A DNA stretch of 64,000 nt from Escherichia phage arall: sequence record MN850584.1, one strand, 5' to 3'. Position numbers and translations under genes: made by a program. Shown one piece after another: positions 2,276 to 33,457 of the stretch; within the stretch, counting starts at the first letter, position 1, and each line of letters starts with the position of its first letter. The notes under the pieces are model-generated. The model did no database searches and had not been told where the DNA came from. It saw only the letters and a program-made list of their open reading frames with translations.

Positions 2276-2986
2276 ATGGCAGCAAACACTCCAGAACAAC
2301 ACGTTCAAGCGGTTTATAAAGCGGAACAAGATATAAATTCTACAAAAAACACAAATAACTCTGCCTCTACTGTGAAAGGGGAGAATGGTTTTTGTATTTT
2401 AGCAAGTGTTTACAATAGTGCAAGTGATCAATATATTCAAAACTACCAAGCTATAGTTTTTGATGCTGTTCCAAATATCGGTGTAAAACGTCAAGCAGAT
2501 GTAACTAGTTATCCTGTAGAAAATGGAGCTAATGTATCGGATCACGTTCAAGTTAAGAATAATACTTTCTCTTTATCAGGAATGATTACAGAGACACCTG
2601 TAAGGTTGATGCGAGATATGTTATATAGTGCTGGTGTTAACGGTACTCGTATTAGTCAAGCAATCACTTACTTAGATAAAATATTTGATGAAAGACAGCC
2701 TATCATTTTAATAACAGAACATAAGGTGTATGAGAATGTTATTTTGAAAGGCATATCATATGAATATCAAACAGAATATGCAATGCAATTTGATTTGGAG
2801 TTTGAACAAGTAAGATTAGTTTCTTACGGGGAAACAAATGCTATTGCGCTTAAGACACAACCAAATAAGAATACAGGTGTTAAGAACAAAAAAGGTACTA
2901 GTCCAGATGCTGATCTTGATGCAAGAACAGGGAAAGCAACTGGTACAGAACATCTTAGTGATCATAGTGCAGATGGTAAAAAATAA
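2276..2986 (+). CDS. tail/baseplate structural protein (unknown family)
   Basis: 236 aa ORF, ATG with upstream GAGG; position immediately after tape measure. Confidence 0.45.
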   Translation: MAANTPEQHVQAVYKAEQDINSTKNTNNSASTVKGENGFCILASVYNSASDQYIQNYQAIVFDAVPNIGVKRQADVTSYPVENGANVSDHVQVKNNTFSLSGMITETPVRLMRDMLYSAGVNGTRISQAITYLDKIFDERQPIILITEHKVYENVILKGISYEYQTEYAMQFDLEFEQVRLVSYGETNAIALKTQPNKNTGVKNKKGTSPDADLDARTGKATGTEHLSDHSADGKK

Positions 2987-2997
2987 GGAGAAAATTT

Positions 2998-3417
2998 TTG
3001 GCTATTTCATCTTATTCAAAGATCAGTAGAAGCACATCTAATAGTGGCTACAATGCAGTATTTATTGATCGAACTTTAGGCTACTATTCTTGGTACTTAC
3101 CTACAGAACAGTACCCAGATCAAACATATACAGTAACTCTCGATGGAGTAGATTACGATATACGTTTGAGGTGGAACACAAGAGATCAAGCGTGGCAAAT
3201 GCAATTAGGCTTATCAGGAGATAATCCTAGTGTAACTTTTAAAGTAACCAATGGCTTAGATCTTCTAGAACCCTATAAGTATATAGAATCTGTACCGGAT
3301 GGTCAACTTTATTTGGTAGATACTGTTAAAATAAACGGTAGACCTAATTACTATGACACAGGTGTAGATAAAAGATTTGCTTTGGTTTATATCGACGCTC
3401 TTCCATATCAAGCATGA
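2998..3417 (+). CDS. hypothetical structural protein
   Basis: 139 aa; TTG start 7 nt after AAGGAG; tightly packed in baseplate module. Confidence 0.45.
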   Translation: MAISSYSKISRSTSNSGYNAVFIDRTLGYYSWYLPTEQYPDQTYTVTLDGVDYDIRLRWNTRDQAWQMQLGLSGDNPSVTFKVTNGLDLLEPYKYIESVPDGQLYLVDTVKINGRPNYYDTGVDKRFALVYIDALPYQA

Positions 3418-3432
3418 TAAAAGGAGTTTTAA

Positions 3433-4443
3433 ATGGCAGAAAAAAGAGATTATACAAAAGCTCCTGCACCCAATCTAAACAGAGCATACAAACTGTTAAT
3501 AGGTACAGCTACTAATACTAAAGAAAAAAGGACAAAAAATTCCTCTTTCAAATCTACAGTAGACTTAGATACTAAACTAGGGGATGCTAAAAAATCAACC
3601 CCTAATTTGTATGTTATTACGGAGCACCAAATATCTTTCACAATAAGAAAAGATAATAATAAAGATCCTAATCAAGCTGAGATAACTATTTATAACCTAA
3701 GCGATGATACTGTTAATTATATTAACAAAGGTATTCGTAACAACTTGGCTGTTGCTTTGGCGGTAGGTTATGAAGGTCAAGAGTTAATTATGATCTTTAA
3801 GGGAACGGTGCAATGGGTGAGTGATACTTTTAACAATACAGACAGACGTACAGTGTTACATTGTCTGGATGGTGGTATTAACATCTCCGAAGCAAGGACA
3901 AGCAGAAGTTATCCGAAAGGTACAAAAGTAAGTAAAGTTGTTAAAGATTTAGTTAAAGATTTAGGTACTACAGAAGGTAATATTCACGTAGACACAGAGA
4001 AAACTTTATCATCTGCAACAGCTATGTGTGGTAACACATCACATTACTTAGAAAGTATCTGTAAAGGTATTGATCATAATGTGTCGATACAAGATGGATC
4101 TGTTTACGTGACACCAAGATCACAAATGTCTAGTGCAAGATGCGCATATATTAGTGCAGAAACAGGTTTAATTGGTAGTCCAGAACCTTTCCACAATGAT
4201 ATTAAACCAACACAAAAAGTAACTAAATCTTCTAAGAAAGCTAAAAAGCCTACAGATGGTGTTAAGTTCAGATGTGAAATGAACGGTGCTATCTTACCAG
4301 AAAAAACTGTTTGGCTCAAGAGTCATAACTATGATGGTGGTTTTAAGGTAGTATCTGTTGTTCATACAGGAGATAGGGAAGGTAAAGACTGGACAACTGA
4401 AGTAGAGTCTGTATCTGTATCTGCAATTATTAAGAAGGGCTAG
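3433..4443 (+). CDS. baseplate hub-like protein (XkdQ/gpD-like by position)
   Basis: 336 aa; AAGGAG RBS; position between tape measure and spike-like gene; no motif confirmed. Confidence 0.35.
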   Translation: MAEKRDYTKAPAPNLNRAYKLLIGTATNTKEKRTKNSSFKSTVDLDTKLGDAKKSTPNLYVITEHQISFTIRKDNNKDPNQAEITIYNLSDDTVNYINKGIRNNLAVALAVGYEGQELIMIFKGTVQWVSDTFNNTDRRTVLHCLDGGINISEARTSRSYPKGTKVSKVVKDLVKDLGTTEGNIHVDTEKTLSSATAMCGNTSHYLESICKGIDHNVSIQDGSVYVTPRSQMSSARCAYISAETGLIGSPEPFHNDIKPTQKVTKSSKKAKKPTDGVKFRCEMNGAILPEKTVWLKSHNYDGGFKVVSVVHTGDREGKDWTTEVESVSVSAIIKKG

Positions 4444-21911: not shown

Positions 21912-22343
21912 TTAATCAGTGAAAATTACGCTTACATCTTCTTTAGAGAAGAGTTTATGATCTTCACCTTTTGTCTCAAGAGTTTCATACAGGTTAAGAA
22001 GTTCTGAAACATCTTTCTCTACCAGTTTCTTCAATGTTGCAATTTTCTGTTTGCGACTCTTAATACGTTCAGCTACAACCTTACGCTGGTATCCGGCAGT
22101 ACGATAACCTGAGAAAGTTACACCAGTGAGACTTGCAGTTACAGGATCGTAGTGACGTTCAATCTGAAATTTATTAAAAGGTACAGCGTCATCACGAATA
22201 ATCTTACCGCCATTACTTACTTGACGAAGACCAGTAACTTGTTCCAGTCGTGCCATAGAAATCTTTGGAGACAGACCAGAGTCCAGGTTCATACCGTTGT
22301 TAATCAGTGCTTTCAGGGTGATTTTGCTGTTCAGTGTACTCAT
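21912..22343 (-). CDS. hypothetical protein
   Basis: 143 aa; GGAGG 9 nt upstream of ATG; start lies inside the 3' end of the methyltransferase gene (44-nt overlap). Confidence 0.45.
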   Translation of the reverse strand: MSTLNSKITLKALINNGMNLDSGLSPKISMARLEQVTGLRQVSNGGKIIRDDAVPFNKFQIERHYDPVTASLTGVTFSGYRTAGYQRKVVAERIKSRKQKIATLKKLVEKDVSELLNLYETLETKGEDHKLFSKEDVSVIFTD

Positions 22344-23031
22344 TTAGTCGTTCCTCCGCTTGCTTAAAAATATTTACATCGGCTTCACAGCCTAAGTATT
22401 CTCTACCTGTTAAAAGTGCCGCAACTTGTGTTGTTGCACTTCCAGAGAAGAAGTCTAAGACTACATCTCCTTCGTTGGTGTGTATATTAATAAGGTCACA
22501 AAACAAAGTCAAGTGTTTTTGTGTTGGATGAAAACGATCTGCTCCTTGATAGATAGGATACTCAAACACACCCTTATGGTAGGAAGCATTGAAGGTTGGC
22601 TTCGAACCTTTAACACAAACAATAGCCATCTCTTTAGCGTTACTAAGATAGTTAACACCGCTGTTGATGGGTACAGGGTTTGTTTTAATCCATTCAATAG
22701 TACGGAACATACGAAAACCAAGCGGTTCAAGGATTTCACGTAGCTCCTGGATCTTCCAGATATCATACCAAACTATGCAAGTACCACCTTTTCTAAGCAC
22801 CCTATAGGCTTCTTTGAATACTTCTTTAAAGTAAGGAATATCTACAACATCCCAATCACCAAAGTTGTAAGATACACGGAATCTATCCGTATCTTTTCCA
22901 GTCGGCTCTCCAGATTGAAAATTTGTGTCACGAGAAATAGCATATGGTGGGTCAGTAAGAATCAAATCTACACTATTGCTTTCGAGGGTTTGCAGGTAGT
23001 TTAATGCGGTGTTGTTTACAAATTCGCTCAT
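22300..23031 (-). CDS. DNA methyltransferase (beta-class N6-adenine or N4-cytosine)
   Basis: 243 aa; motif IV LILTDPPYAIS (DPPY) precedes motif I VLDFFSGSATT, the beta-class order. Confidence 0.75.
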   Translation of the reverse strand: MSEFVNNTALNYLQTLESNSVDLILTDPPYAISRDTNFQSGEPTGKDTDRFRVSYNFGDWDVVDIPYFKEVFKEAYRVLRKGGTCIVWYDIWKIQELREILEPLGFRMFRTIEWIKTNPVPINSGVNYLSNAKEMAIVCVKGSKPTFNASYHKGVFEYPIYQGADRFHPTQKHLTLFCDLINIHTNEGDVVLDFFSGSATTQVAALLTGREYLGCEADVNIFKQAEERLNEYTEQQNHPESTD

Positions 23032-23040
23032 TATATCTCC

Positions 23041-23069
23041 TTCAAAGAAAAGGAGCCGTTAGGCTCCTT
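23041..23069 (-). terminator. rho-independent terminator
   Basis: AAGGAGCC-N4-GGCTCCTT hairpin, T-rich on - strand; near-identical to the hairpin at 21882. Confidence 0.55.
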
Positions 23070-23091: not shown

Positions 23092-24039
23092 TTAGAAACA
23101 GTGCAGGAAGTTTCGACCATACTGCAAACCGATAGGAGCAAATGGGATATCATCATCGAAATCTTGAATAACAGGTTCTGGTTCTTTCGGTGCTGGCTCT
23201 TTCTTCTCTACTTTTTTAGTTTCTTTCTTAACTTCTTGTACTGGGGTAGACATTCCACGGATAGCAGCAGCCACTTTATCAGACAAAGCAAGAACTTCAC
23301 GAGCAGCTTCAATAATCTCTTCTGCCGTTACAGTTTTACCTGTATGATCACGACAAGCGTTAAGAATTGCGTGTCCAACTGAAGCACCAAGATCATAGTC
23401 AGTCACATCAACGCCACGATCTTTAGCAATTTCAGCTTTCAGAGTAACAGTTGCAGATTGTACCACACCAGCCAAGTCGAAAGCATCACCTTTCACACCA
23501 GCACGTAGAAGCTCCAGAGCGCCGTTTACAGCGTGTCCTGTTTCGATCCCTACGGTATCACGTTTTTTGTAGTTAGGCTTGCTACCGTCATTATTAGATG
23601 GCTTATTTCCACCTTTTGAAGAGGATTGTGCTTGCTGAACACCTTCTGTTGAAAGAATAGTGATTTTACCTTTAGAGGAGTTGTAGTATGTTTTGCCATT
23701 CCATTCAGAAGGTTTAACATCCATAGTTAGTTCTACACCTTTTTCGATAGTAACCCACTTATCACCATCTTTAACTTGCAGGTTTTCATGTTCTGGGTGC
23801 AGTTTAACTTCACCTAGGCTAACCCAAACACCTTTATCATCAGCACCAGCACCTTTCTCTTTAATAAGCAGAGATGCTTTGTGAGTTGATTCAATTTTCT
23901 TATCTGGCTGACCTGCAACCTTAATATAAGAGACTTTCATTTCATCAAACTTATCTAGTTTGACATATTCAACAATACCTTCAGCCCAGAATGCTTCTTT
24001 TTTAGTACGACGGTCGATTTCAGAATTAATTACTGGCAT
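23092..24039 (-). CDS. ssDNA-binding-like protein carrying an SSB C-terminal-type acidic motif
   Basis: 315 aa; …QDFDDDIPF matches the bacterial SSB tip (DFDDDIPF) but is followed by 15 more residues (APIGLQYGRNFLHCF); OB-fold not verified. Confidence 0.4.
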   Translation of the reverse strand: MPVINSEIDRRTKKEAFWAEGIVEYVKLDKFDEMKVSYIKVAGQPDKKIESTHKASLLIKEKGAGADDKGVWVSLGEVKLHPEHENLQVKDGDKWVTIEKGVELTMDVKPSEWNGKTYYNSSKGKITILSTEGVQQAQSSSKGGNKPSNNDGSKPNYKKRDTVGIETGHAVNGALELLRAGVKGDAFDLAGVVQSATVTLKAEIAKDRGVDVTDYDLGASVGHAILNACRDHTGKTVTAEEIIEAAREVLALSDKVAAAIRGMSTPVQEVKKETKKVEKKEPAPKEPEPVIQDFDDDIPFAPIGLQYGRNFLHCF

Positions 24040-24055
24040 AAATTCTCCTCTATAA

Positions 24056-24454
24056 TTACATTACTTTAACACAAAACTCTCGTAAAAGAGTAGCGTCAGT
24101 TTCTTCCAACAGGTATTTACCAAGACCAATACCAAATCCTATTTCACCACTTTCAAAATGGAGGATTTGTATCTTTTCTCCACCAAGGTTAATTACTTTT
24201 GCTTTTCCAGGATTATCCAAAACATCTCGTATTGTATCCTGTAGTAACATTAGTTCACGTTTTGTGATAGTGGTTTCAGATATCTCTTTGTCTTCTACCC
24301 GCACTGTTAAACGGTTGTATCCACCAAAGAGACATAGTATTTGAATAAAAAAGGTATTATCTTGAGGTTCAACATCTTTTTTAGTTAGTTCAAGACGATT
24401 AGTTTCTCTACTGTAGAACGTCTCGACTAAGATTTTAGAACGATTGTCTGTCAT
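24056..24454 (-). CDS. hypothetical protein
   Basis: 132 aa ORF with GAGGA RBS. Confidence 0.45.
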   Translation of the reverse strand: MTDNRSKILVETFYSRETNRLELTKKDVEPQDNTFFIQILCLFGGYNRLTVRVEDKEISETTITKRELMLLQDTIRDVLDNPGKAKVINLGGEKIQILHFESGEIGFGIGLGKYLLEETDATLLREFCVKVM

Positions 24455-24509
24455 TCAAGTCCTCATAATAACACATAATTGTAAGGTTTGTCAACACTTA
24501 AATCTTAAA

Positions 24510-25112
24510 TTATTCGTTGTTAAATGAATCCAGTGTACGTACTTCTGGTTCTTTGGGAATGAAAACGTCTTTTACAAAGCGGAACATAGGGAAACGTTCT
24601 GCCATTTTACGGACGTGTGCTTCTTTACCTGTGTATCGGTGATTAATAGTGCAAATATTAGTTTTCAATGCAAATTCAAAATCTGGATGATATACATAAT
24701 TTTGACCATCCCAGTAACACAGGCAAATAGCTACGTCAAAGTTCCATACGATTTCACTGCGTACACCCTCTTCCATGATCATAAAGTTAAACTTAAGATC
24801 TTTATAGTATGCTTCAAATACCCATTTCAAATGTGGTAGTTCGGCATAAGTGTGTTCTGTTTGCTTAGTGAGTTGTTTAACATTACGTGCACCAACACCC
24901 AACATCAAAAACTTCTCTACTAGCACGAGTGTATTATGGTTAGGCATACGCAAGTAAATGTCAATGTCTTGTGCAGGTTTCTCTAATCGCCAATCACGTA
25001 CAGCGCCGCCAGCTACAATTGCAAACGGATCTACCAGTTGGCACATACGTAATACTTCTAAAGCGCGTACTTTTTGATCTTCAATATTCATATTTTCTCC
25101 TATCGTGTCCAC
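24510..25112 (-). CDS. pol-beta superfamily nucleotidyltransferase, CCA-adding/poly(A) polymerase head-domain-like
   Basis: 200 aa; IVAGGAVRDWRLEKPAQDIDIY matches the GGxVRD…DxD motif of the CCA/PAP head domain. Confidence 0.5.
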   Translation of the reverse strand: MDTIGENMNIEDQKVRALEVLRMCQLVDPFAIVAGGAVRDWRLEKPAQDIDIYLRMPNHNTLVLVEKFLMLGVGARNVKQLTKQTEHTYAELPHLKWVFEAYYKDLKFNFMIMEEGVRSEIVWNFDVAICLCYWDGQNYVYHPDFEFALKTNICTINHRYTGKEAHVRKMAERFPMFRFVKDVFIPKEPEVRTLDSFNNE

Positions 25113-25696
25113 TCTTTATGTTGTTCTACATGCTCAAGCATTTCATTATACAGTGCTTTAAGATGTGGAACAACTCTTTCATCTTCAGTTTCAAAGAATT
25201 TTGTAAGCTGCTCTGCCTTAGCTTTCAACCAGCAAAGATGCGCTTCAATTTCAGTATTAAAACGTCCCAGCGTTTTCATGCGATCATCTACTTTTATATT
25301 GGCTTTGTATTTATTACGATCTTTTTCGTAACTACAGCCTACCATAGTTCCATGAGATCTTTTACTTACTCTATAAGCTAAGAACTTATTAAGATCTCCT
25401 GTTACTAAAAGACAGGTATCGGGAGAGTAAACCCTCCCTCCTATAATATCTTTATCAAGTTCTAAGTTTTCCCAGTTTTCCCAAGTTTGCAACCAGGAGT
25501 AGAAATTTGAGAACAGTTTCCATTCTTCACAAACCGTCACCCCCTTATAACAAGGATCACGTTCTTGTTGGCAAGGGGAGTAACACCTCCCCAGCATAGC
25601 CATCCATTTCATATAATGCGGCGTTAGTTTCTTACTACCAGGTAGCGTACTCTCGCCTTGCAAATCATTAATACCTTCACCATATACGGTAAGCAT
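25100..25696 (-). CDS. free-standing homing endonuclease-like protein (AP2 DNA-binding domain type)
   Basis: 198 aa; N-terminal MKWMAMLGRCYSP…YKGVTVCEEWKLFSNFYSW and C-terminal GCSYEKDRNKYKANIKVDDRMKTLGRFNTEIEA (AP2-like) typical of phage HNH/AP2 endonucleases; abuts polymerase gene. Confidence 0.5.
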   Translation of the reverse strand: MLTVYGEGINDLQGESTLPGSKKLTPHYMKWMAMLGRCYSPCQQERDPCYKGVTVCEEWKLFSNFYSWLQTWENWENLELDKDIIGGRVYSPDTCLLVTGDLNKFLAYRVSKRSHGTMVGCSYEKDRNKYKANIKVDDRMKTLGRFNTEIEAHLCWLKAKAEQLTKFFETEDERVVPHLKALYNEMLEHVEQHKEWTR

Positions 25697-25723: not shown

Positions 25724-28303
25724 TCAGTGACAACTGGCCCATGAGTTACCAACATCGTAACCAGCAGTGAGAGGTACATTAAGATTGTAATACTCACCAG
25801 CTTTATTAACAGCGATAGATGCTAATTCTCCAGCACGACTGTAGGCTGTAAACCAACCACCTTTCGGAGATTCATGTACGTTAGCCCAAATCTTGCCAGT
25901 ACGTTTCTCTTCCTCTTCTTTCCAGGCATTAACTTTATCCAAACATTCTTTATCAATTTTCTTTTGTTCTTCTGGATCATCAACTTGAGTCCAACCTAAA
26001 GATTCTTTAGAGAACCATTTAAAATGCACCAGATCACGAGTTACTTCAAGCTGTGCTTCATCGTGATATGCAATCATTTGTTGAACGAATGACTTATTTT
26101 TCCAGTCATCAACAAAAAAGTCAACAGCTAATCCTTCTTCTTCGATAAGATCGTCGTAGATAACCATTGCTCTTTTTGCACAAATAACACCACCACTCTG
26201 GAACAGAGAGTTAAGTATTGCGTGTGCAGATCGTGTAGGTACTTTCCTACCATCAATACCCAGAATGTATTTCTTACCTGTTTTAACCCAGAAATCATGC
26301 AGACGTTCTTTAAGAAGTGCAAGAGGTTTTGCAGCTTCCCAGAAAGCATCGTATACAAGCTGTCCTGTATACATATCACTACCAATAGTTTTTGCTACTT
26401 TTGCAGCTTGAGCACCATAAGTAATGCCATACTTAACAGATTTAGCAGGGCTTCGTTCAAACTTGCGACCAATAGTGTCAGAAATACGTCGAGCCATCAT
26501 TGTATGAACATCATTAGGTTTTTCCAACAATAGAGCATTACAATATTCGTGTGGTTCCTGCTCGTACCGCCAACAGTAGTGTGATTCTATTTTTGCCTCA
26601 AGAGAATCAAAGTCATAACCAATTTGGAAGTATTTTGGAACTTCTACACCAAATAAGTTACGCATTTCATATCCGTACAGAGATGTTACACGTGGGATAT
26701 TTGCTACTAACCTATGTTTCATACGAGACGTAGCTGCATCACACGTTGCAGCAGGAGTTGGTATACGACCATCAGCCCTTACTGCCGCCAGATAACCTTT
26801 ATCGTAATCCTCTTCATCTTCTTCCCAATCAGCACCACCACCTAGAATAGAGTTTCTACGATGTTTATACGTAAGATACTGCACAATCTGCGTAGCATAA
26901 GGAAACTTTTCACCCAGTGCTTCCAGGTTAGGACAAATATCTTTCTCTTGCCCTTTTGTAAAGGAAGGGTTAGTAAGCACTTTAACACCACGACCTTTAG
27001 CTTTAGCAATACGATCTCTTAGTTTCCATTCCAAAGTTTCTGGTGTGCACTCCAGATGATCACATCTATCCTGGCAGAAGTTAGATGCTAATGTTTGATC
27101 AACATAGTCACGAATAGCTTTCTCCATTTGTGCTTCATCTTTCTTAATCTTAGTGCCAGATTTAAGAGTGATATCTTTATCTTTATATTCAGATGGACTC
27201 CAACCTAAACCAACTAACCAATTTTTAATATGTGTAGTGTCGTCTAAAGTAGCAGGTACTGTAGGATCACAAATAGGTTCTTCTGCTGGAATAGGGAGTT
27301 TAAACTCTTTACCTAATGCAAATAACCACCAACCATCTTCTTTTTGTACAAGTTCACCAGAATGTTTCTCTGCAAACTTTATCATGTTACTTGAAGGTTC
27401 ACCATTCTTTTTAAACTGTAGTTTAGGTGGAATGAATGATTTCAAATAACCTTTAGTAGCAGGTTTAGGAGGTAGCACAGGTTCTGCCTCTAAACGACAT
27501 GCTTCCATTCGAGCATCCAGATCACGAATATTATCTTCTGCTTGTTTCATATTGAAAGCAAAGCCACGGTGTTCTTGACGTGTAATAATATCAGCTACAC
27601 GTTGTTCTAAGTTAAATGGTTCAGACCACTTATTATAATCACCCCACTCTTCCATCAAATAACGGAACACTGCGGTGTTAGCTTTGTTATCGTAAATACA
27701 GTAATACAGCATATCTGCTGCAAATGTTCTAAATCTTTCAGCTTCAGGAATGTTTTTTCTAAAATCAATTTTAACATCCCCTCCAGCTTTCTTAGATAAC
27801 TCTGCCAGACTATGACCACCGAAGCGATCAGGGTTTAGTGTCTTACTTAAGATCATAGTATCACAAATTTCAATGTTACTATTACCCCAAGTATTGTACT
27901 TGATACTGTAGTTGAGTTTAAAAAATAATTTAATTGCCAGTAAGTCGAAGTTAATGATGTTGTGTCCAACTACTTTGGTAATTTTATAGTTTGAATTACC
28001 TTTAAATTTACCTGTTCCATTTACAAAATCAGGAAAATCTTTAAGAGGGAAATGGGTATATTCTAAATGCTCATATTCCTCCAGTCGGTATTCATACTTT
28101 CCGTCAGTCTCAATATACGGACGACCATCGAAAAGATATTTATCACCATCATGGAAAGCAATAATCTCTCCAGTATCATGACTTTCGCACACAATACAGT
28201 GCATTGCAAAACTATCTTTTAAACGATATGGACTTGCCAAGTAATCTACACTTTCGTCATTAAGCAAGTTGTTACTTTCAATGTCGAAAGTAAAAGCTCC
28301 CAT
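25724..28303 (-). CDS. DNA polymerase, family A, with 3'-5' exonuclease domain
   Basis: 859 aa; Exo I FDIESNN near N-terminus; motif B-like RSPAKSVKYGITYGA; motif C YHDEAQLEV. Confidence 0.8.
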   Translation of the reverse strand: MGAFTFDIESNNLLNDESVDYLASPYRLKDSFAMHCIVCESHDTGEIIAFHDGDKYLFDGRPYIETDGKYEYRLEEYEHLEYTHFPLKDFPDFVNGTGKFKGNSNYKITKVVGHNIINFDLLAIKLFFKLNYSIKYNTWGNSNIEICDTMILSKTLNPDRFGGHSLAELSKKAGGDVKIDFRKNIPEAERFRTFAADMLYYCIYDNKANTAVFRYLMEEWGDYNKWSEPFNLEQRVADIITRQEHRGFAFNMKQAEDNIRDLDARMEACRLEAEPVLPPKPATKGYLKSFIPPKLQFKKNGEPSSNMIKFAEKHSGELVQKEDGWWLFALGKEFKLPIPAEEPICDPTVPATLDDTTHIKNWLVGLGWSPSEYKDKDITLKSGTKIKKDEAQMEKAIRDYVDQTLASNFCQDRCDHLECTPETLEWKLRDRIAKAKGRGVKVLTNPSFTKGQEKDICPNLEALGEKFPYATQIVQYLTYKHRRNSILGGGADWEEDEEDYDKGYLAAVRADGRIPTPAATCDAATSRMKHRLVANIPRVTSLYGYEMRNLFGVEVPKYFQIGYDFDSLEAKIESHYCWRYEQEPHEYCNALLLEKPNDVHTMMARRISDTIGRKFERSPAKSVKYGITYGAQAAKVAKTIGSDMYTGQLVYDAFWEAAKPLALLKERLHDFWVKTGKKYILGIDGRKVPTRSAHAILNSLFQSGGVICAKRAMVIYDDLIEEEGLAVDFFVDDWKNKSFVQQMIAYHDEAQLEVTRDLVHFKWFSKESLGWTQVDDPEEQKKIDKECLDKVNAWKEEEEKRTGKIWANVHESPKGGWFTAYSRAGELASIAVNKAGEYYNLNVPLTAGYDVGNSWASCH

Positions 28304-28799: not shown

Positions 28800-30572
28800 T
28801 TAATAAGAACCATCAGGAATATTCTCTGGGTTACTTGTGTATTGATCGTAATCGTGAAGTGTCGCTGTTTTAATCTCATAGAAGAAACTACCTGCTGCAC
28901 CAGTCTCTGAGAACTCACGGTTCTTTAGAATGTAGCAATATGTGCGGTTACGTTCCATAGGATCTTCAGCTTGTTTATCACGCTCCAGCGCAATTGTGAT
29001 ACCAGCACCTTTAGCAAGGAAGCTACTACCCATTGCATCATCTTCTACAATATGTTCATTACTATTGTTAGAAGACTTTTTAACGTGTGAAATTACAACA
29101 ATGGTAATTGCATACTCTTTCATAATGCGTTTCAGCCACGTCGCAAGTTCCTCTTGTTGTGACACGTCCATACCAGAAAGCAAATCAGAATAAGGGTCGA
29201 TAACAAGAATGGTTACTCCGAAATAAATAATCATTTCCAGAACCTTCTCTTTAATCACATCTACGTTAGCTCCACGATCATCACAAACATAGAAACGTGG
29301 TGTTCCATCTTCTCGTTCGTAAAAATCACGAATCTTTTCTTCATTATCTTTTAAAATCTTTTCCTTCTCTTCTTTTGTTTTACGGTGAAGAGGGATGTGC
29401 AAGAATGAAGACAGTAAGTTACGAGAATACTTCTTATACGTTGCCTCCAAAGATAAAATACCAAGAGTATGTTCTGGGTGTGCAAGAATAATGTGCTTCG
29501 TAATCTCGTTAACCAACAGTGTCTTACCAATACTTGTTTTTGCAAGTATAACAGTAATTTCTTCTTCTACCAAGCCTCCACCTAACATATTAGAAGCAAC
29601 ACGCATGAATGGAGGAAGGGTGATCATTTTAGCTTCCAGGCATTCCAAGGCTGCTTCATACAGTACGTTAGAAGCATAAACACCAGCAGGTGTGTACAGT
29701 TTAGCTTTGAAAAAGCGATCAAGAAAGTGATCAATTTTTCCTTCTACTAATGCCTGGTTAGGATCTTTAACATCAGTTAGTTCCATCACGTAAACTTTAT
29801 TACGTGGTAAGATTTTAACACATTTCTCAACTGCTGCACGTCCAGCTTCATCATTATCCATACATAGAACAATCTTTTTAAATTGATCTAAGAATTTATA
29901 ACGATGTTGAAGCTGCTTATGCAGAGATGTTTCGCCACAAGTACCAGATACTACAGCAGGAACAGGATATTTACCACCCTTGTTATAATCTTTTAGCATC
30001 TGTGTTGCAGCCAGCATATCGTGTTCACCACCAACGATTAGAATAGTACCGCTGTGGTTACGATATTTAAACTCCCCAAAAAGATCACAATCCTTTCCTG
30101 TTTCACCGATAGGATGTGAGAAATCTTTTGGATCGATACGTTGTTTATACCCAGCAATATTGTAATCTTTAGTTGTAGGGTATAGTGTTGAAATTACTTC
30201 GCCAGTAGCTTCATCGTACATATAACGTACACCGAAAGGCTTAGAGATATCTTCACGAATACCGCGATAACCTTTTGGATTAGTTCCAGTGCTGGCTTTT
30301 AGTTTATCATGTACTTCAGGATTAAACTCACTACCCAAGATATCCTCCTCTTCAATTTCTTCGCCGTGTGCATTTAACCATTTTTGATCAGGGATAGTAA
30401 AGCCACAAGAAAAACAATGTGCTCCTCGATGGTCTTCATCGGCATCTAAGCCATATACCATCAAATTGTTTTGTGATCGATCACGCCCTCCTTTCATACA
30501 ACGAGGACACCCAGTATGTCCTTCTTGACTTAGATCAATGTTATACCCATATTTATTTACAACATAAGACAC
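28800..30572 (-). CDS. bifunctional DNA primase-helicase (T7 gp4-like)
   Basis: 590 aa; Zn ribbon CPRC…CFSC; TOPRIM acidic motifs (GGEHD, MDNDEAG); DnaB-type Walker A AKTSIGKT and Walker B VLVIDPYSD. Confidence 0.8.
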   Translation of the reverse strand: MSYVVNKYGYNIDLSQEGHTGCPRCMKGGRDRSQNNLMVYGLDADEDHRGAHCFSCGFTIPDQKWLNAHGEEIEEEDILGSEFNPEVHDKLKASTGTNPKGYRGIREDISKPFGVRYMYDEATGEVISTLYPTTKDYNIAGYKQRIDPKDFSHPIGETGKDCDLFGEFKYRNHSGTILIVGGEHDMLAATQMLKDYNKGGKYPVPAVVSGTCGETSLHKQLQHRYKFLDQFKKIVLCMDNDEAGRAAVEKCVKILPRNKVYVMELTDVKDPNQALVEGKIDHFLDRFFKAKLYTPAGVYASNVLYEAALECLEAKMITLPPFMRVASNMLGGGLVEEEITVILAKTSIGKTLLVNEITKHIILAHPEHTLGILSLEATYKKYSRNLLSSFLHIPLHRKTKEEKEKILKDNEEKIRDFYEREDGTPRFYVCDDRGANVDVIKEKVLEMIIYFGVTILVIDPYSDLLSGMDVSQQEELATWLKRIMKEYAITIVVISHVKKSSNNSNEHIVEDDAMGSSFLAKGAGITIALERDKQAEDPMERNRTYCYILKNREFSETGAAGSFFYEIKTATLHDYDQYTSNPENIPDGSY

Positions 30573-30584
30573 ATGATTCTCCTA

Positions 30585-30854
30585 CTAAAATGATTCGTTT
30601 GTCTCCATAATATATTGCATTTCCAAATCTTCCATATGTTTCTTAAATTGGTAAACAATTTCCGATGGGGAAATATCTATATCAAAAAGTTCTTTTGTAC
30701 CAGAATAAAATCTAATACCATCAACAATAAGACCACCATAATAATCCCAATCACTTTCTCGTGAGAAAGGGTTAGGTTCTTCATAATAGTAATCTACTTC
30801 AACAATAATAGGTTCTTTATTATCTTGTTTATACTCAAAATCAAAAGTGTTCAT
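30585..30854 (-). CDS. hypothetical protein
   Basis: 89 aa acidic ORF; ATGA overlap with downstream gene. Confidence 0.4.
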   Translation of the reverse strand: MNTFDFEYKQDNKEPIIVEVDYYYEEPNPFSRESDWDYYGGLIVDGIRFYSGTKELFDIDISPSEIVYQFKKHMEDLEMQYIMETNESF

Positions 30855-31798
30855 TATAAATCCTCGATAAGCAGTTTGCGGGTTTCATTTAAATCATCAA
30901 TATTGTAGTTATCTCTTACATACTTAGCAAGAGCTAATCCTTTCTCAATACAAACATCAGGAGATTCGATTAAGTATTCTACAATATCTTTCCACTCTTT
31001 AACTGAATCAGCAAAGAAGATTAGATCTTTAAATTCTTCAGTATAGTAGTTCTCTCGTGGCGAACAAACGAGTGGCAAACCTTTAGCACCAGCTTCAAGA
31101 ATTTTTAAATTACTTTTGGCATTATTAAAATGATTATTTACTAATGGAGCTATGGAGATTTGATGACCATCGTATGCTTCCATATAACACTCATAAGGAC
31201 GAATACCTTCATAAACACAATCTGGTTGAATATCTTCTTTAATTTGCAACCATTGAGCACTACTTAACTCTTCGTGATCTCTACGAAATCCACATAAAGT
31301 TAAATCTTTACCAAAATCAGGAAGAATTGCTAAATCATGTTTATGGGTTTCACTTCCCGCCCAAACCAGTGGACTTTTAGAATAACGATCTTTAGTAAGA
31401 ACAAACTGTCCTTCATCAAAAGGTAGTCCGTTAGGCACAATATGTACATTATCATTGTATTGGCTTAATTCAACCTTTAACGCCGGAGTTGTTGTAGTTA
31501 CAAGATCGCTTCTTTCAAGGAACCATTTTAGATCATCTCGGATTTGATTTTCAAATAATCCTTCAAGCATATGCCCTTCAGGAATAATTAAAGAATCATC
31601 CAGATCCATTACCAATTTAAACCCAAGTTGTTTAAGAGCCAGGAAACCTGGCTTTCCACGTGTTGGTACTCCATTGAACACAAAAATATTATGCTTAGGA
31701 TTAATGGTCAGTTTGCGTTTATATGGCAAAATGATTCTATGAAAATCACATACACTATACTTTTCATTTCCGCGTGTGTCAAGAATAATATTAGGCAT
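30854..31798 (-). CDS. glycosyltransferase-like protein (GT-B-like), paralog A
   Basis: 314 aa; C-terminal ISIAPLVNNHFNNAKSNLKILEAGAKGLPLVCSP; paralogous to 31810-32784. Confidence 0.4.
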   Translation of the reverse strand: MPNIILDTRGNEKYSVCDFHRIILPYKRKLTINPKHNIFVFNGVPTRGKPGFLALKQLGFKLVMDLDDSLIIPEGHMLEGLFENQIRDDLKWFLERSDLVTTTTPALKVELSQYNDNVHIVPNGLPFDEGQFVLTKDRYSKSPLVWAGSETHKHDLAILPDFGKDLTLCGFRRDHEELSSAQWLQIKEDIQPDCVYEGIRPYECYMEAYDGHQISIAPLVNNHFNNAKSNLKILEAGAKGLPLVCSPRENYYTEEFKDLIFFADSVKEWKDIVEYLIESPDVCIEKGLALAKYVRDNYNIDDLNETRKLLIEDL

Positions 31799-31809: not shown

Positions 31810-32784
31810 TTAAAGACTTTCAATAACTTGACGACGCAGTTCATTGGCATCTGCAAGATTATAATTAAGACGAACGTGTTCTGCAAGCATCATACCACGA
31901 TCTTCTGTGTATCTAGGGTTCCTCATTAGCTTGACAACTTCATAATGCCAAGATGCTTTAGAGTCTGCATAGATAACAACCTTTGCATCTACCGGATTGA
32001 AGTACGGCAGCACAGGAGAACAGATAATAGGAAGACCCTTTGCACCTGCTTCCAAAATCTTCAAATTGCTTTTACAGTTGTTGAAGTCATTATCTACTAG
32101 GGGAGCAATTGCAATACTGTGACCGTCATACACAGACATATACTCACCTAAATTTTTAATAGCTGGTTTATACTGTGCATTTGGAATTTTACGTTTTATT
32201 TTAACCCACTCCGCAGTAGTTAGATACTGACTATTATTTCCAACAGGTGCAGAAGGATACACTTCATACCCTGCAATTGTCAATAGTGTATCATCAAATG
32301 TATTAGCTACAAGAGATAAATCAGGCTCATGGCTTGCTCCTCCAGCCCAGATAATAGGTGTGTCAGAACTACGGTCTTTTGTCAAAGTAAATTGACCTTC
32401 GTCGTAAGGTAGTGCGTTTCTAATAACGACAACATTACGATTTAAATGACGAATTTTGTAAGCTAGGTATTCTGTTGTTACAGTAACCACATCTGCTAAC
32501 TTAATCATCTCTACAATAGTCTTTGAGTGATTAGTAAATACGCCAGCCATATAATGTTCAGGATTAAGCGAATAAAAATCATCTAAATCAACAATAATCT
32601 TAACACCTTGTGCCTTCAGGCGTTTAACTTCGTCTGATCCACGAGAATACACTCTATTAAAAACTAAAACGTCTTTCTTAGGTTTAAACGTATTTCCAGC
32701 AAATGGCATTACAATACGATGGTAATCACAACCACTGCCTAACTTATTATCACACTTAAGTACAGGAGTATTAGGATTTACCAT
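31810..32784 (-). CDS. glycosyltransferase-like protein (GT-B-like), paralog B
   Basis: 324 aa from internal ATG (MVNPNTPVLK) with GAGGAGG RBS; IAIAPLVDNDFNNCKSNLKILEAGAKGLPIICSP aligns with paralog A. Confidence 0.4.
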   Translation of the reverse strand: MVNPNTPVLKCDNKLGSGCDYHRIVMPFAGNTFKPKKDVLVFNRVYSRGSDEVKRLKAQGVKIIVDLDDFYSLNPEHYMAGVFTNHSKTIVEMIKLADVVTVTTEYLAYKIRHLNRNVVVIRNALPYDEGQFTLTKDRSSDTPIIWAGGASHEPDLSLVANTFDDTLLTIAGYEVYPSAPVGNNSQYLTTAEWVKIKRKIPNAQYKPAIKNLGEYMSVYDGHSIAIAPLVDNDFNNCKSNLKILEAGAKGLPIICSPVLPYFNPVDAKVVIYADSKASWHYEVVKLMRNPRYTEDRGMMLAEHVRLNYNLADANELRRQVIESL

Positions 32785-33457
32785 ATTTTTGAGCCTCCTC
32801 ATAAGAGATAAAAGTTTTACCATTGCGAAGATCCTCCAGTGATTGTTTATATTGTTCCCAGTTTACACCAATCCCCTGTTCTTTCTCTTCTTTTGACAGA
32901 TTCGCAAAAGGTAAAGGATTATCTCCAAACACATCGTCAGGATGGATAAACGCCATAATTCGAATAGGACATGGTACACCGAGAATGCCTCGGTTCAAAC
33001 CTGCCAGTGGAACGCGCTGAATCCACTCTGCATCTTCATATCCATAACCGTGGGTGTATGAGCGGAAATAGCCAGCTTTCTCAATAACTGCACGGGAATA
33101 CATACCAAACTGGCACATACCTAGTTCCCAAATAACCACCTCCCCTTCAATACCTTTTACTTTATCTTTAAAGTATTCAGGCATACCAAAGAAATCCCAA
33201 CCATTTTCCTTTGCCTGTTTTACAAAATATGTTTCCCACCCTGGAACAACAGGATAGCAATCATCATCAAAAATAAACCAGTAGTCATACCCTTCATCAT
33301 AAAACTTTTTCATCAGTTCATTACGGGCATATGCAACACCTTTTCGTTCACGATCATACTGTACAACAAAAGTAGCATTAGGATCAGTCACAAGATAATC
33401 TTTAAGAGGACGCTTACCTACAGTAATAACACCAACACCAATTTTTGTATTTTCCAA
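32771..33457 (-). CDS. glycosyltransferase, GT-A fold (DxD type)
   Basis: 228 aa; WFIFDDDCYP (DxD) and YGYEDAEW acidic motif. Confidence 0.45.
   Translation of the reverse strand: MENTKIGVGVITVGKRPLKDYLVTDPNATFVVQYDRERKGVAYARNELMKKFYDEGYDYWFIFDDDCYPVVPGWETYFVKQAKENGWDFFGMPEYFKDKVKGIEGEVVIWELGMCQFGMYSRAVIEKAGYFRSYTHGYGYEDAEWIQRVPLAGLNRGILGVPCPIRIMAFIHPDDVFGDNPLPFANLSKEEKEQGIGVNWEQYKQSLEDLRNGKTFISYEEAQKYGKS

What the first reader, a model, noticed from the sequence alone, without database searches (positions are those of the whole stretch)
23092..24039. SSB-tip motif DFDDDIPF embedded before a 15-residue C-terminal extension
The protein contains the near-exact bacterial SSB C-terminal tip but continues APIGLQYGRNFLHCF. 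In bacterial SSB the free C-terminal Phe is needed to recruit partner proteins, so either this is a phage SSB with an extended or masked tip, a frameshift or sequencing artefact just after the motif, or a mimic that titrates host SSB-interacting proteins.
Basis: seen in the sequence. Interest (0 to 1): 0.5.

Follow-up and report, generated by a model that had tools for sequence, protein, structure and literature searches.

The report
Mobile tail extension on phage SSB
A phage DNA-replication protein carries the usual bacterial "SSB tip" docking peptide, but the tip is buried under a conserved 15-residue add-on that also occurs in hundreds of other phages and plasmids and spreads together with a selfish endonuclease gene, so the accepted rule that the tip must sit at the free end of the protein may not hold for these phages.

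Summary
ORF 23092-24039 (-) encodes 315 aa ending DFDDDIPF-APIGLQYGRNFLHCF*.

It is not an artefact. About 69 phi92-like (Justusliebigvirus) genomes carry the same extension, with synonymous polymorphism.

The protein is an SSB-like replication protein with an OB fold, a 4-helix domain and a disordered linker. It is a homolog of Bas52_0087, the 2026-described trigger of the DRT10 defence system.

Most family members (78 of 99) end exactly at DDDIPF. The extension appears patchily, with at least 15 gains or losses.

In two genera, near-identical gene pairs differ by one insert placed exactly after the Phe codon (fully resolved in one pair). It consists of the 45-nt extension plus an overlapping zinc-finger/HNH homing endonuclease gene. 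One relative keeps the extension beside a decayed endonuclease stub, as the window may.

The same motif, AP[IV]GLQY-x2-3-hh-x-[CVA]-h-COOH, follows the tip in canonical and other unrelated SSBs and in a primase/helicase. It often occurs there with no endonuclease.

Synonymous sites are saturated while the peptide is conserved, so selection acts on the peptide.

The likely function, a second docking or partner-switching element, is inferred only. I found no prior description.

The parts
23092..24039 (-). Gene for the 315-aa SSB-like replication protein (phrog_4477 family; phi92 gp156 ortholog)
   Evidence: ORF. phrog_4477 match E=4e-101. 99% identical to Justusliebigvirus genomes, including phi92 gp156. 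Homolog of Bas52_0087.
23647..24039 (-). N-terminal OB-fold-like beta domain (residues 1-131)
23560..23646 (-). Disordered linker 1 (residues 132-160)
   Evidence: pLDDT 49-70.
23254..23559 (-). Conserved four-helix domain (residues 161-262). It contains the near-invariant D161-xx-G-x-E-T-G-H-A-x-N motif. D161 aligns with D252 of Bas52_0087, a DRT10 escape site.
   Evidence: Helices 163-179, 186-208, 215-231 and 239-260 at pLDDT >90. Near-invariant columns. Residue alignment. Escape mutants reported in 10.64898/2026.04.29.721553.
23164..23253 (-). K/E/P-rich intrinsically disordered linker (residues 263-292)
   Evidence: pLDDT 50-65. Highly variable across homologs.
23140..23163 (-). SSB-tip motif DFDDDIPF (residues 293-300), here internal rather than C-terminal
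   Evidence: P299 and F300 are invariant and the D positions near-invariant in the family. The only PDB sequence similarity of the family is to SSB C-termini.
23095..23139 (-). 15-residue extension APIGLQYGRNFLHCF (residues 301-315), followed by stop 23092-23094
   Evidence: Same motif in 235 phage records. 7 synonymous and 0 non-synonymous differences against phage nieznany.
23102..23120 (-). ATGGTCGAAACTTCCTGCA. In phage nieznany this is the start codon and first codons (+1 frame) of the overlapping homing endonuclease. Here it opens only an 11-codon relic ORF (MVETSCTVSNS*).
   Evidence: These 19 nt are identical to nieznany, while 5 of the 6 codons just upstream differ synonymously.
23044..23069 (-). 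Intrinsic terminator hairpin AAGGAGCC-TAAC-GGCTCCTT plus T tract, ending the SSB transcription unit
   Evidence: A similar GGAGCC...GGCTCC hairpin follows the gene in ukendt, PVPSE1 and L076.
24465..24494 (-). Sigma-70-like promoter (TTGACA-18-TATTAT, 11/12, extended -10 TG) upstream of the two-gene unit
   Evidence: This is a consensus match only. The number of sites found does not exceed the shuffled expectation.
24056..24454 (-). Upstream, probably co-transcribed 132-aa gene (phrog_16560, unknown function). It precedes the SSB-like gene in all Stephanstirmvirinae relatives examined.
22300..23031 (-). Context: an N6/N4 DNA methyltransferase gene occupies the slot just downstream. Relatives have either nothing there or the homing endonuclease.
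   Evidence: PF01555 E=1.9e-30. Synteny comparison.

Best explanation
The gene encodes the replicative SSB-like protein of a phi92-like phage. Its layout is an OB fold, a conserved helical domain, a disordered linker and the bacterial-type SSB tip DFDDDIPF.

The 15 residues after the tip are a real, heritable short linear motif: AP[IV]GLQY, then 2-3 variable residues, then hydrophobic-hydrophobic-x-small-hydrophobic-COOH.

The motif is a mobile module. It travels as the 5' part of a cassette whose other part is a free-standing homing endonuclease gene (N-terminal CxxCG zinc finger plus an HNH or EndoVII-like nuclease). The cassette inserts immediately after the tip's Phe codon; in the pair where both ends are resolved, it replaces only the stop codon. 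The cassette then supplies the SSB gene's new stop codon, which lies inside the endonuclease's own N-terminal codons.

The conserved tip-coding DNA is the only sequence shared between unrelated SSB genes. I infer that it serves as the left recombination anchor. That would explain how the module has landed on unrelated SSB scaffolds and on a primase/helicase that also ends in a tip.

In the window's lineage the endonuclease ORF is absent, either lost or never present. The extension remains and is kept by purifying selection on the peptide.

Functionally (inferred, not shown), the extension converts the free-carboxylate tip into an internal motif and adds a second aromatic/hydrophobic docking element with a new hydrophobic C-terminus. 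This most likely changes which partners the tail recruits. It may weaken pockets that need the Phe carboxylate, such as ExoI-type sites, and add or retain another partner. It is unlikely simply to inactivate the tip.
For: Identity of the protein:
- phrog_4477 match.
- AF2 model with pLDDT 84.8 showing an OB domain and a 4-helix domain.
- It lies in a replication module with primase/helicase, DNA polymerase and a nucleotidyltransferase.
- BLASTP E=2e-15 to Bas52_0087, reported as an SSB-like DRT10 trigger with a C-tip.

Not an artefact: about 69 phi92-like genomes share the extension.

Ancestral state:
- 78 of 99 family members end at DDDIPF and 21 carry an extension.
- Fitch parsimony on an NJ tree gives at least 15 changes, with a tip-only root.

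Cassette:
- Bas49 equals Bas52 plus a 638-nt insert (45-nt extension plus endonuclease gene) between the Phe codon and the stop. Homology resumes immediately after the insert.
- Mismatches cluster at the junction: 7 in the last 24 nt, against 1-3 per 60 nt elsewhere.
- In nieznany versus ukendt the left junction is at the same position.
- In 9 endonuclease-positive alleles from different phage groups, the SSB stop TAA lies in an xxT-AAR (Lys) codon of the endonuclease, two codons before the first Cys of CxxCG.
- Of 14 extension-bearing family alleles examined, 7 carry the endonuclease. None of 7 tip-only alleles does.
- L072 keeps the extension plus decayed 5' and 3' stubs of the endonuclease gene.

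Selection on the peptide:
- Window versus nieznany: 7 synonymous and 0 non-synonymous differences. Across 8 tails, pS is 0.5-1.2 and pN is 0-0.4.
- The part after LQY was not constrained by my search patterns. It is 7-9 residues long in 49 of 49 non-redundant tails and shows a position-specific hydrophobic pattern. Its pN/pS is about 0.5 at saturated pS.

Independence from the endonuclease: a 14-aa variant (APIGLQYPALLMCM and similar) is common on canonical SSBs with unrelated downstream genes.

Context dependence:
- A scan for FAPIGLQY without requiring the tip returned only C-terminal tails preceded by [DENQK][IVT]PF.
- The Vequintavirus primase/helicase ends in EDDETPF*, while its Mydovirus ortholog ends DDDTPF-APIGLQYAKHAIYVI*.
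Against: - No binding partner was identified. Neighbouring genes of extension-bearing SSBs are heterogeneous (Erf, RecT, RdgC-like, methyltransferases).
- AF2 leaves the tail disordered (pLDDT about 50) and predicts no intramolecular docking.
- Close relatives with a plain tip (ukendt, Bas52) are viable phages, so the extension is dispensable.
- It can be acquired with few other differences in the flanking DNA I compared. It may therefore be merely tolerated rather than useful.
- The second half of the extension is only moderately constrained (pN/pS about 0.5).
- Many tails were found by pattern or similarity searches, which bias towards conserved sequences. The dN/dS estimates rest on 15 codons.
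- In the window itself there is no endonuclease gene, and only an ambiguous 19-nt relic that is also extension coding sequence. Origin from a cassette in this lineage is inferred from relatives.
- Whether the endonuclease-free 14-aa variant is ancestral to the endonuclease-linked one, or derived from it, is unresolved.
Confidence: 0.6

Rival explanations
1. Neutral scar. The extension is only read-through sequence left by endonuclease insertion and later loss. It has no function of its own and looks conserved only because all copies descend recently from one cassette.
For: - Within the family, the endonuclease gene occurs only in extension-bearing alleles (7 of 14 examined, versus 0 of 7 tip-only alleles).
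- L072 shows endonuclease decay that leaves the extension behind.
- Tip-only relatives are viable.
- A single nonsense mutation cannot restore a clean tip, so a neutral extension could persist.
Against: - Synonymous sites are near saturation (pS 0.5-1.2) while amino acids are kept. Window versus nieznany shows 7 synonymous and 0 non-synonymous differences, including the 6 codons that do not overlap the endonuclease ORF.
- Tail length after LQY is fixed at 7-9 residues in 49 of 49 tails.
- The motif is common on canonical SSBs with no endonuclease nearby.
- It is invariant in about 69 phi92-like genomes despite synonymous polymorphism.
Confidence: 0.15
2. Device for endonuclease expression. The extension exists so that ribosomes translating the abundant SSB mRNA run across the endonuclease start region and terminate inside it. 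This couples low-level endonuclease translation to SSB translation. The peptide itself is irrelevant.
For: - The SSB stop codon is always embedded in the endonuclease's N-terminal codons, at a fixed distance from the first zinc-finger Cys.
- Endonuclease start codons lie 8-29 nt upstream of that stop.
Against: - This explains the overlap geometry but not amino-acid conservation with freely varying third positions.
- It does not explain the many endonuclease-free carriers.
- It does not explain retention in the window's lineage, which has no endonuclease.
- It may be true in addition to the main explanation for endonuclease-positive alleles.
Confidence: 0.1
3. Degradation or processing tag. The new hydrophobic C-terminus (…IHAL, …IYAL, …HAIHAI, …LMCM, …LHCF) is recognised by a cytoplasmic protease such as ClpXP or ClpAP, or is clipped to unmask the tip. 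This would give timed control of SSB level or tip exposure.
For: - The last five positions follow the pattern hydrophobic-hydrophobic-x-small-hydrophobic-COOH.
- From my own knowledge, this resembles C-terminal degrons such as ssrA (…YALAA) and MuA (…RRKKAI).
Against: - The resemblance is from memory only and was not tested.
- The most conserved part is APIGLQY, not the extreme C-terminus.
- There is no obvious reason for a replicative SSB and a primase/helicase to share a degron.
Confidence: 0.08
4. Assembly or frameshift artefact that hides a stop codon right after DDDIPF.
For: Most homologs end exactly at DDDIPF.
Against: - The identical extension is in about 69 independently sequenced phi92-like genomes and in IMG/VR contigs.
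- The insert is 45 nt and in frame.
- The same motif is found in more than 200 phage records, about 100 plasmids and 8 bacterial genomes.
Confidence: 0.01

Closest known systems
E. coli SSB C-terminal tip (SSB-Ct, ...MDFDDDIPF-COOH), the hub for ExoI, chi, PriA, RecQ, RecO, DnaG and others
   Same: - The octapeptide DFDDDIPF is identical.
- It is preceded by a disordered linker.
- It is carried by an OB-fold ssDNA-binding-type protein in a replication module.
   Different: - The Phe is not C-terminal. Fifteen more residues follow, so the alpha-carboxylate is absent. From my own knowledge of the solved SSB-Ct complexes, that carboxylate pairs with a basic residue of the partner.
- The OB domain has no Pfam SSB match.
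- A conserved 4-helix domain lies between the OB domain and the tail.
Bas52_0087 of Vequintavirus RudolfGeigy (bioRxiv 10.64898/2026.04.29.721553): an SSB-like protein with a C-tip, trigger of the DRT10/UG17 reverse-transcriptase defence system
   Same: - Homologous in the OB and helical domains (32-41% identity).
- Same genomic slot.
- Same tip.
- Escape residue D252 aligns with the near-invariant D161 of the window protein.
   Different: - Bas52_0087 ends exactly at SFDDDIPF*.
- It has an extra roughly 100-aa insert, reported as a second OB fold.
- As far as my term searches of that paper showed, it does not mention the extension or the endonuclease-bearing alleles such as Bas49_0089.
T7 gp2.5 (SSB) and gp4 (primase-helicase) acidic C-terminal tails ending in Phe, both docking on the T7 DNA polymerase
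   Same: In Vequintavirinae, both the SSB-like protein and the primase/helicase end in an acidic ...[DE]xPF tail. This suggests a shared docking site, as in T7 (the T7 comparison is from my own knowledge).
   Different: - There is no sequence homology to the T7 proteins.
- The partner here is unknown.
- From my own knowledge, the T7 tails need the terminal Phe. Here a conserved extension follows it in many lineages.
Free-standing homing endonuclease genes of T4-like phages (seg and mob genes) and their co-conversion of flanking markers (reviewed in PMC2988022)
   Same: - Presence/absence polymorphism between near-identical phages.
- Insertion at a precise site next to a highly conserved coding sequence.
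- Substitutions clustered at the junction.
   Different: - This cassette carries a piece of coding sequence that is translated as part of the neighbouring host gene. That piece is conserved at the peptide level, and it overlaps the endonuclease's own start.
- Endonuclease activity and homing were not tested.

Membership tests
Bacterial-type SSB C-terminal tip (SSB-Ct) | Acidic run followed by I/L-P-F | tested here: met
   DFDDDIPF at residues 293-300. A family profile matches the C-termini of PDB SSB chains.
Bacterial-type SSB C-terminal tip (SSB-Ct) | The Phe is the last residue, with a free alpha-carboxylate | tested here: not met
   Fifteen residues follow F300 before the stop.
Bacterial-type SSB C-terminal tip (SSB-Ct) | Tethered by an intrinsically disordered linker | tested here: met
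   pLDDT is 50-65 for residues 262-315. The linker has a low-complexity K/E/P composition and varies across homologs.
Bacterial-type SSB C-terminal tip (SSB-Ct) | Binds host SSB-interacting proteins (ExoI, chi, PriA and others) | not testable with these tools
   Needs peptide-binding assays or complex prediction.
Canonical SSB family (Pfam PF00436) | Sequence match to the SSB OB-domain profile | tested here: not met
   No Pfam family at E<=1.
Canonical SSB family (Pfam PF00436) | OB fold | tested here: met
Canonical SSB family (Pfam PF00436) | Binds ssDNA | not testable with these tools
   Inferred only from fold, tip and replication-module context.
phrog_4477 / Bas52_0087-like phage SSB-like proteins | Sequence homology over the OB and helical domains | tested here: met
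   phrog_4477 E=4e-101. 100 homologs found. BLASTP to Bas52_0087 gives E=2e-15 and 3e-14.
phrog_4477 / Bas52_0087-like phage SSB-like proteins | Position in the replication module of Stephanstirmvirinae/Vequintavirinae genomes | tested here: met
   Synteny with nieznany, ukendt, pEC-M2929 and Bas52. Module genes identified.
Free-standing homing-endonuclease cassette | An endonuclease ORF is present at the locus | tested here: not met
   The window has only a 19-nt start relic (23102-23120) and then a terminator. The ORF is present in relatives: nieznany, Bas49, L060, L068, L069, L070 and L073.
Free-standing homing-endonuclease cassette | Precise presence/absence polymorphism between near-identical genomes, with junction-proximal substitutions | tested here: met
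   Bas49 versus Bas52 shows a 638-nt insert at Phe|stop, with mismatches clustered at both junctions. Nieznany versus ukendt shows the same left junction. This was shown in relatives, not in the window.
Free-standing homing-endonuclease cassette | The endonuclease cuts the cassette-free allele and drives its own inheritance | not testable with these tools
   Needs cleavage assays and mixed infections.
Beta-clamp-binding motif (QL[SD]LF / QLxLxL) | Q followed by L at +1 and L/F at +3/+4 | tested here: not met
   By inspection, LQYGRNFL and LQYPALLM do not fit the consensus. The consensus is from my own knowledge. This was considered only as a lead.

The most novel reading that the evidence does not exclude
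A homing-endonuclease cassette carries a functional protein-coding 'exon', a 14-17-residue interaction motif. It grafts this motif onto the C-terminus of any replication protein that ends in the conserved SSB tip, using the tip's codons as the recombination anchor. Selfish-element spread would then rewire which host or phage partners the SSB hub recruits (for example evading ExoI-type nucleases or defence sensors). It would also show that the 'free C-terminal Phe' rule for SSB tips is not universal.
Probability: 0.35. Interest if true: 0.78.

Novelty: new variant of a known kind. Interest (0 to 1): 0.62.

Why it matters
The SSB tip is the central docking peptide of bacterial genome maintenance. 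Its terminal Phe carboxylate is considered essential for partner binding.

A conserved, selected extension that buries this Phe occurs in hundreds of phages and plasmids of Gammaproteobacteria. One of the following must therefore be true:
- some partners read the tip as an internal motif;
- the extension recruits a new partner;
- phages deliberately mask the tip from host nucleases or defence sensors.

This protein family was recently shown to trigger the DRT10 defence system, which is linked to the tip-binding nuclease SbcB/ExoI.

The link to a homing endonuclease gives a rare example of a selfish element that moves a piece of functional coding sequence between unrelated genes.

Natural isogenic pairs already exist (Bas49/Bas52, nieznany/ukendt), so the question is directly testable.

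Tried and rejected
- **Artefact or frameshift:** rejected. I saw no slippery heptamer at the IPF codons (inspection).
- **Pfam:** gave nothing for the protein or for the endonucleases. PHROGs was needed.
- **The search for related loci:** with alignment A1 it failed because no block was conserved enough. Single-protein scans of IMG/VR returned only 1 and 2 loci.
- **The search of protein representatives:** with the 30-aa tail it returned only 3 hits, because the query is too short for E-values at that database size.
- **Profile search with 42-aa tails:** returned almost only short SSB fragments and gave no view of non-SSB carriers.
- **Literature:** full-text searches for APIGLQY, IPFAPIG, IPFAPVG and DDIPFAP found no papers. 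A search for homing endonuclease plus ssb found nothing relevant. The HK620 SSB paper and the Hna paper were read and do not bear on the extension.
- **A specific partner encoded next to extension-bearing SSBs:** not found. Neighbours are Erf-like, RecT-like, RdgC-like, methyltransferases and DnaQ-like exonucleases, with no consistent partner.
- **Beta-clamp motif, PIP box and ClpX/Lon degrons:** considered from memory. None fits well enough to claim.
- **AF2:** gives no docking of the tail onto the protein's own domains.
- **Endonuclease remnant in the window's 22-nt spacer between stop and terminator:** similarity to both the endonuclease 5' end and the native spacer of tip-only relatives is too weak to decide.
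Full report
**1. Observation**

The minus-strand ORF 23092..24039 encodes 315 aa. Translation of 23095-23163(-) is DFDDDIPFAPIGLQYGRNFLHCF.
- The tip DFDDDIPF is residues 293-300.
- The extension is residues 301-315.
- The stop is TAA at 23092-23094.

An 8-bp GC-rich hairpin with a T tract follows at 23069-23044. A sigma-70-like site lies at 24494-24465, upstream of a 132-aa ORF that precedes the gene.

**2. What the protein is**

The window is a phi92-like phage (Justusliebigvirus, Stephanstirmvirinae). The protein is 97.5-99.7% identical to homologs in 55 GenBank phage records, including phi92 gp156.

Pfam finds nothing. PHROGs places it in phrog_4477, function unknown (E=4e-101).

An AF2 model built on 75 homologs has mean pLDDT 84.8. 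It shows:
- an all-beta domain (residues 1-131, pLDDT >90);
- a disordered stretch (132-160);
- a four-helix domain (163-260, pLDDT >90);
- a disordered tail (262-315, pLDDT about 50-56).

The gene sits in a replication module:
- primase/helicase, 28800-30572;
- DNA polymerase, 25724-28303;
- an HNH gene, 25100-25696;
- a nucleotidyltransferase, 24510-25112.

A 2026 preprint (10.64898/2026.04.29.721553) identified Bas52_0087 of a Vequintavirus as an SSB-like protein with a FDDDIPF C-tip that is required to trigger the DRT10/UG17 defence system. Defence strength there is modulated by ExoI/SbcB. I fetched that gene (L064 7982-9208). It is a homolog of the window protein (BLASTP E=2e-15 and 3e-14). 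It ends exactly at ...SFDDDIPF*. Its escape residue D252 aligns with the near-invariant D161 of the window protein.

**3. The extension is real but derived**

Of 99 family members (98 database homologs plus the window protein), 78 end exactly at the tip and 21 carry an extension of 14-17 residues. A neighbour-joining tree of the protein bodies with Fitch parsimony needs at least 15 gains or losses, and the root state is tip-only.

The cause, however, is not an artefact:
- All phi92-like genomes share the extension.
- Phi92-like contigs differ from the window only at synonymous sites within it.

**4. Link to a homing endonuclease**

Two natural near-isogenic pairs define a cassette.

*Vequintavirus.* Bas49 (L004) equals Bas52 (L064) plus a 638-nt insert. 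Homology runs to the Phe codon, then come the 45-nt extension and an overlapping 207-aa endonuclease gene. Homology resumes right after the endonuclease stop, at the position of the original stop codon. Mismatches cluster at the junctions: 7 in the last 24 nt of the gene against 1-3 per 60 nt elsewhere, and 4 in the first 8 nt downstream.

*Phapecoctavirus.* Nieznany (extension plus a 164-aa HNH endonuclease) and ukendt (plain tip) are nearly identical up to the IPF codons and then diverge.

The endonucleases belong to phrog_2340 (HNH) or phrog_1035 (EndoVII-like). They share an N-terminal CxxCG...EFYKH...CKEC zinc-finger module.

In 9 endonuclease-positive alleles from different phage groups, the SSB stop TAA is embedded in an xxT-AAR (Lys) codon two codons before the first Cys of the finger. 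Annotated or longest-ORF start codons lie mostly 8-29 nt upstream of that stop.

Counts among alleles I examined:
- Extension-bearing family alleles with the endonuclease: 7 (nieznany, Bas49, L060, L068, L069, L070, L073).
- Extension-bearing family alleles without it: 7 (window, PVPSE1, K54lambda, L071, L072, L074, L075).
- Tip-only alleles with it: 0 of 7 (ukendt, Bas52, L065, L066, L067, L076, L077).

L072 keeps the extension followed by a decayed 5' stub (TAGGCTCATCAAGTGTG, compared with GAGGTGCATCAAGTGCG in Bas49) and the 3' end of the endonuclease gene. This shows that endonuclease loss can leave the extension behind.

In the window, the 19 nt ATGGTCGAAACTTCCTGCA (23120-23102) are identical to the nieznany endonuclease start. 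Five of the six codons just upstream differ synonymously. No endonuclease ORF remains. A DNA methyltransferase gene (22300-23031, PF01555) lies beyond the terminator.

**5. The motif is far wider than this family**

tblastn of the tail hits 235 phage records and about 100 plasmid records that include the extension.

Back-translated DNA patterns found 32 and 44 IMG/VR stretches. They found only 8 of about 185,000 species-representative bacterial genomes. Seven of those are Gammaproteobacteria, and in the 7 whose ORF I recovered the motif ends an SSB gene.

Carriers include:
- canonical SSBs (MASRGVNKVILVG...);
- several other OB-type SSBs;
- the Mydovirus 691-aa primase/helicase.

When the tip was not required in the search (FAPIGLQY only), every true hit was still preceded by [DENQK][IVT]PF and was C-terminal.

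The Vequintavirus primase/helicase ends ...EDDETPF*. Its Mydovirus ortholog (55% identical) ends ...DDDTPF-APIGLQYAKHAIYVI*. The same graft has therefore happened on a second tip-bearing replisome protein.

Two sub-types exist:
- A 15-17-aa type (LQY[GA][KR]xxhHxh), often with the endonuclease.
- A 14-aa type (LQYPALLMCM and similar) on canonical SSBs of marine and enteric phages. Its downstream genes are unrelated (MT-A70-like methyltransferase, RdgC-like, DnaQ-like exonuclease) and there is no endonuclease.

**6. Selection acts on the peptide**

Pairwise Nei-Gojobori counts over the 15 extension codons give pS 0.5-1.2 and pN 0-0.4. Window versus nieznany shows 7 synonymous and 0 non-synonymous differences.

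The residues after LQY were not constrained by my search patterns. They are 7 (36 tails), 8 (10) or 9 (3) residues long in 49 non-redundant tails. They follow the pattern x2-3-[LI][LI]-x-[CVA]-[MIL]-COOH. Their pN/pS is about 0.5 at saturated pS.

Third positions vary freely, so a DNA- or RNA-level signal cannot explain the conservation. The peptide, read in the SSB frame, is what is kept.

**7. Mechanism**

*Shown:*
- The architecture of the protein.
- The insertion site and composition of the cassette in relatives.
- Patchy distribution of the extension.
- Peptide-level constraint.

*Inferred:*
- The tip-coding DNA, the only sequence common to unrelated SSB genes, serves as the left recombination anchor.
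- The window's extension came from such a cassette, and the endonuclease was later lost.
- The extension is a second docking element that changes partner selectivity of the tail.

From my own knowledge, solved SSB-Ct complexes pair the Phe alpha-carboxylate with a basic residue of the partner, and C-terminal fusions to SSB are non-functional. A random extension should therefore be harmful. This fits selection for one particular 'compatible' peptide.

The partner is unknown. Neighbouring genes give no consistent candidate, and AF2 predicts no self-docking.

Rival explanations are a neutral scar, a translational-coupling device for the endonuclease, and a degron or pro-peptide. The coupling idea may hold in addition to the main explanation for endonuclease-positive alleles. 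The artefact reading is excluded.

**8. Novelty**

The family's SSB-like nature and its tip were published in 2026.

I found no description of the extension motif. There were no full-text hits for the motif strings. I also found no description of an endonuclease cassette at the 3' end of ssb genes.

I rate this a new variant of a known kind. It is a known docking peptide with a conserved, mobile add-on that breaks the peptide's defining 'free C-terminus' feature.

Noticed in passing
L064 1-1691 (Bas52_0075) and L052/L055/L063/L009 (Mydovirus primase/helicase): The Vequintavirus primase/helicase ends in an SSB-tip-like acidic tail, ...GFEDDETPF*. This resembles the T7 situation, where both SSB and helicase-primase carry acidic Phe-ending tails. 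The Mydovirus ortholog has the same tail plus the extension APIGLQYAKHAIYVI.
   Followed up: partly
window 25100-25696 (-): A 198-aa HNH endonuclease gene (phrog_953, E=8e-74) sits between the DNA polymerase gene and the nucleotidyltransferase gene. It overlaps the latter's start by 13 nt. It is a second, unrelated mobile-type endonuclease in the same replication module.
   Followed up: partly
window 21912-23031 (-): An N6/N4 DNA methyltransferase (PF01555) and a 143-aa phrog_20244 gene lie between the SSB terminator and the tail-fibre genes. In Phapecoctavirus this slot is empty (ukendt) or holds the homing endonuclease (nieznany). The slot is an insertion hot spot.
   Followed up: partly
window 24510-25112 (-); L068 896-1534; L069 940-1515; L076 1404-2036: The nucleotidyltransferase-like gene two genes upstream of the SSB hits the PolyA_pol head domain only weakly here. 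The gene at the same position in relatives carries precomputed hits to PF26128 (Gad2, an anti-Gabija family), marked weak or faint in two of the three. This gene may be an anti-defence protein.
   Followed up: no
window 30854-31798 and 31810-32823 (-): Two tandem paralogous glycosyltransferase genes (both phrog_7162, E about 1e-145) lie just beyond the primase/helicase gene.
   Followed up: no
L014, L016, L019, L022, L024, L026, L030, L038, L042, L048: In marine and enteric phage contigs, canonical SSBs with the 14-aa extension variant are very often flanked by an RdgC-like gene (MLFKNA.IY... / MFF.N...) and, in several, an MT-A70-like methyltransferase starting 10 nt after the SSB stop. The RdgC assignment is by N-terminal sequence resemblance only and was not checked against a profile.
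   Followed up: no
L072 3255-3382: A Vequintavirus-like metagenomic contig shows an internally deleted homing endonuclease. About 17 nt of its 5' end and its last codons remain, between the extended SSB gene and the native terminator.
   Followed up: yes
L005 (OY979426.1) annotation: The GenBank annotation of this Klebsiella phage region has frame errors: the CDS labelled 'exonuclease' (2896-4020) translates with many stops. The real SSB-like ORF ends at locus position 3721 with ...DIPFAPIGLPYGRNFIHCI*.
   Followed up: partly
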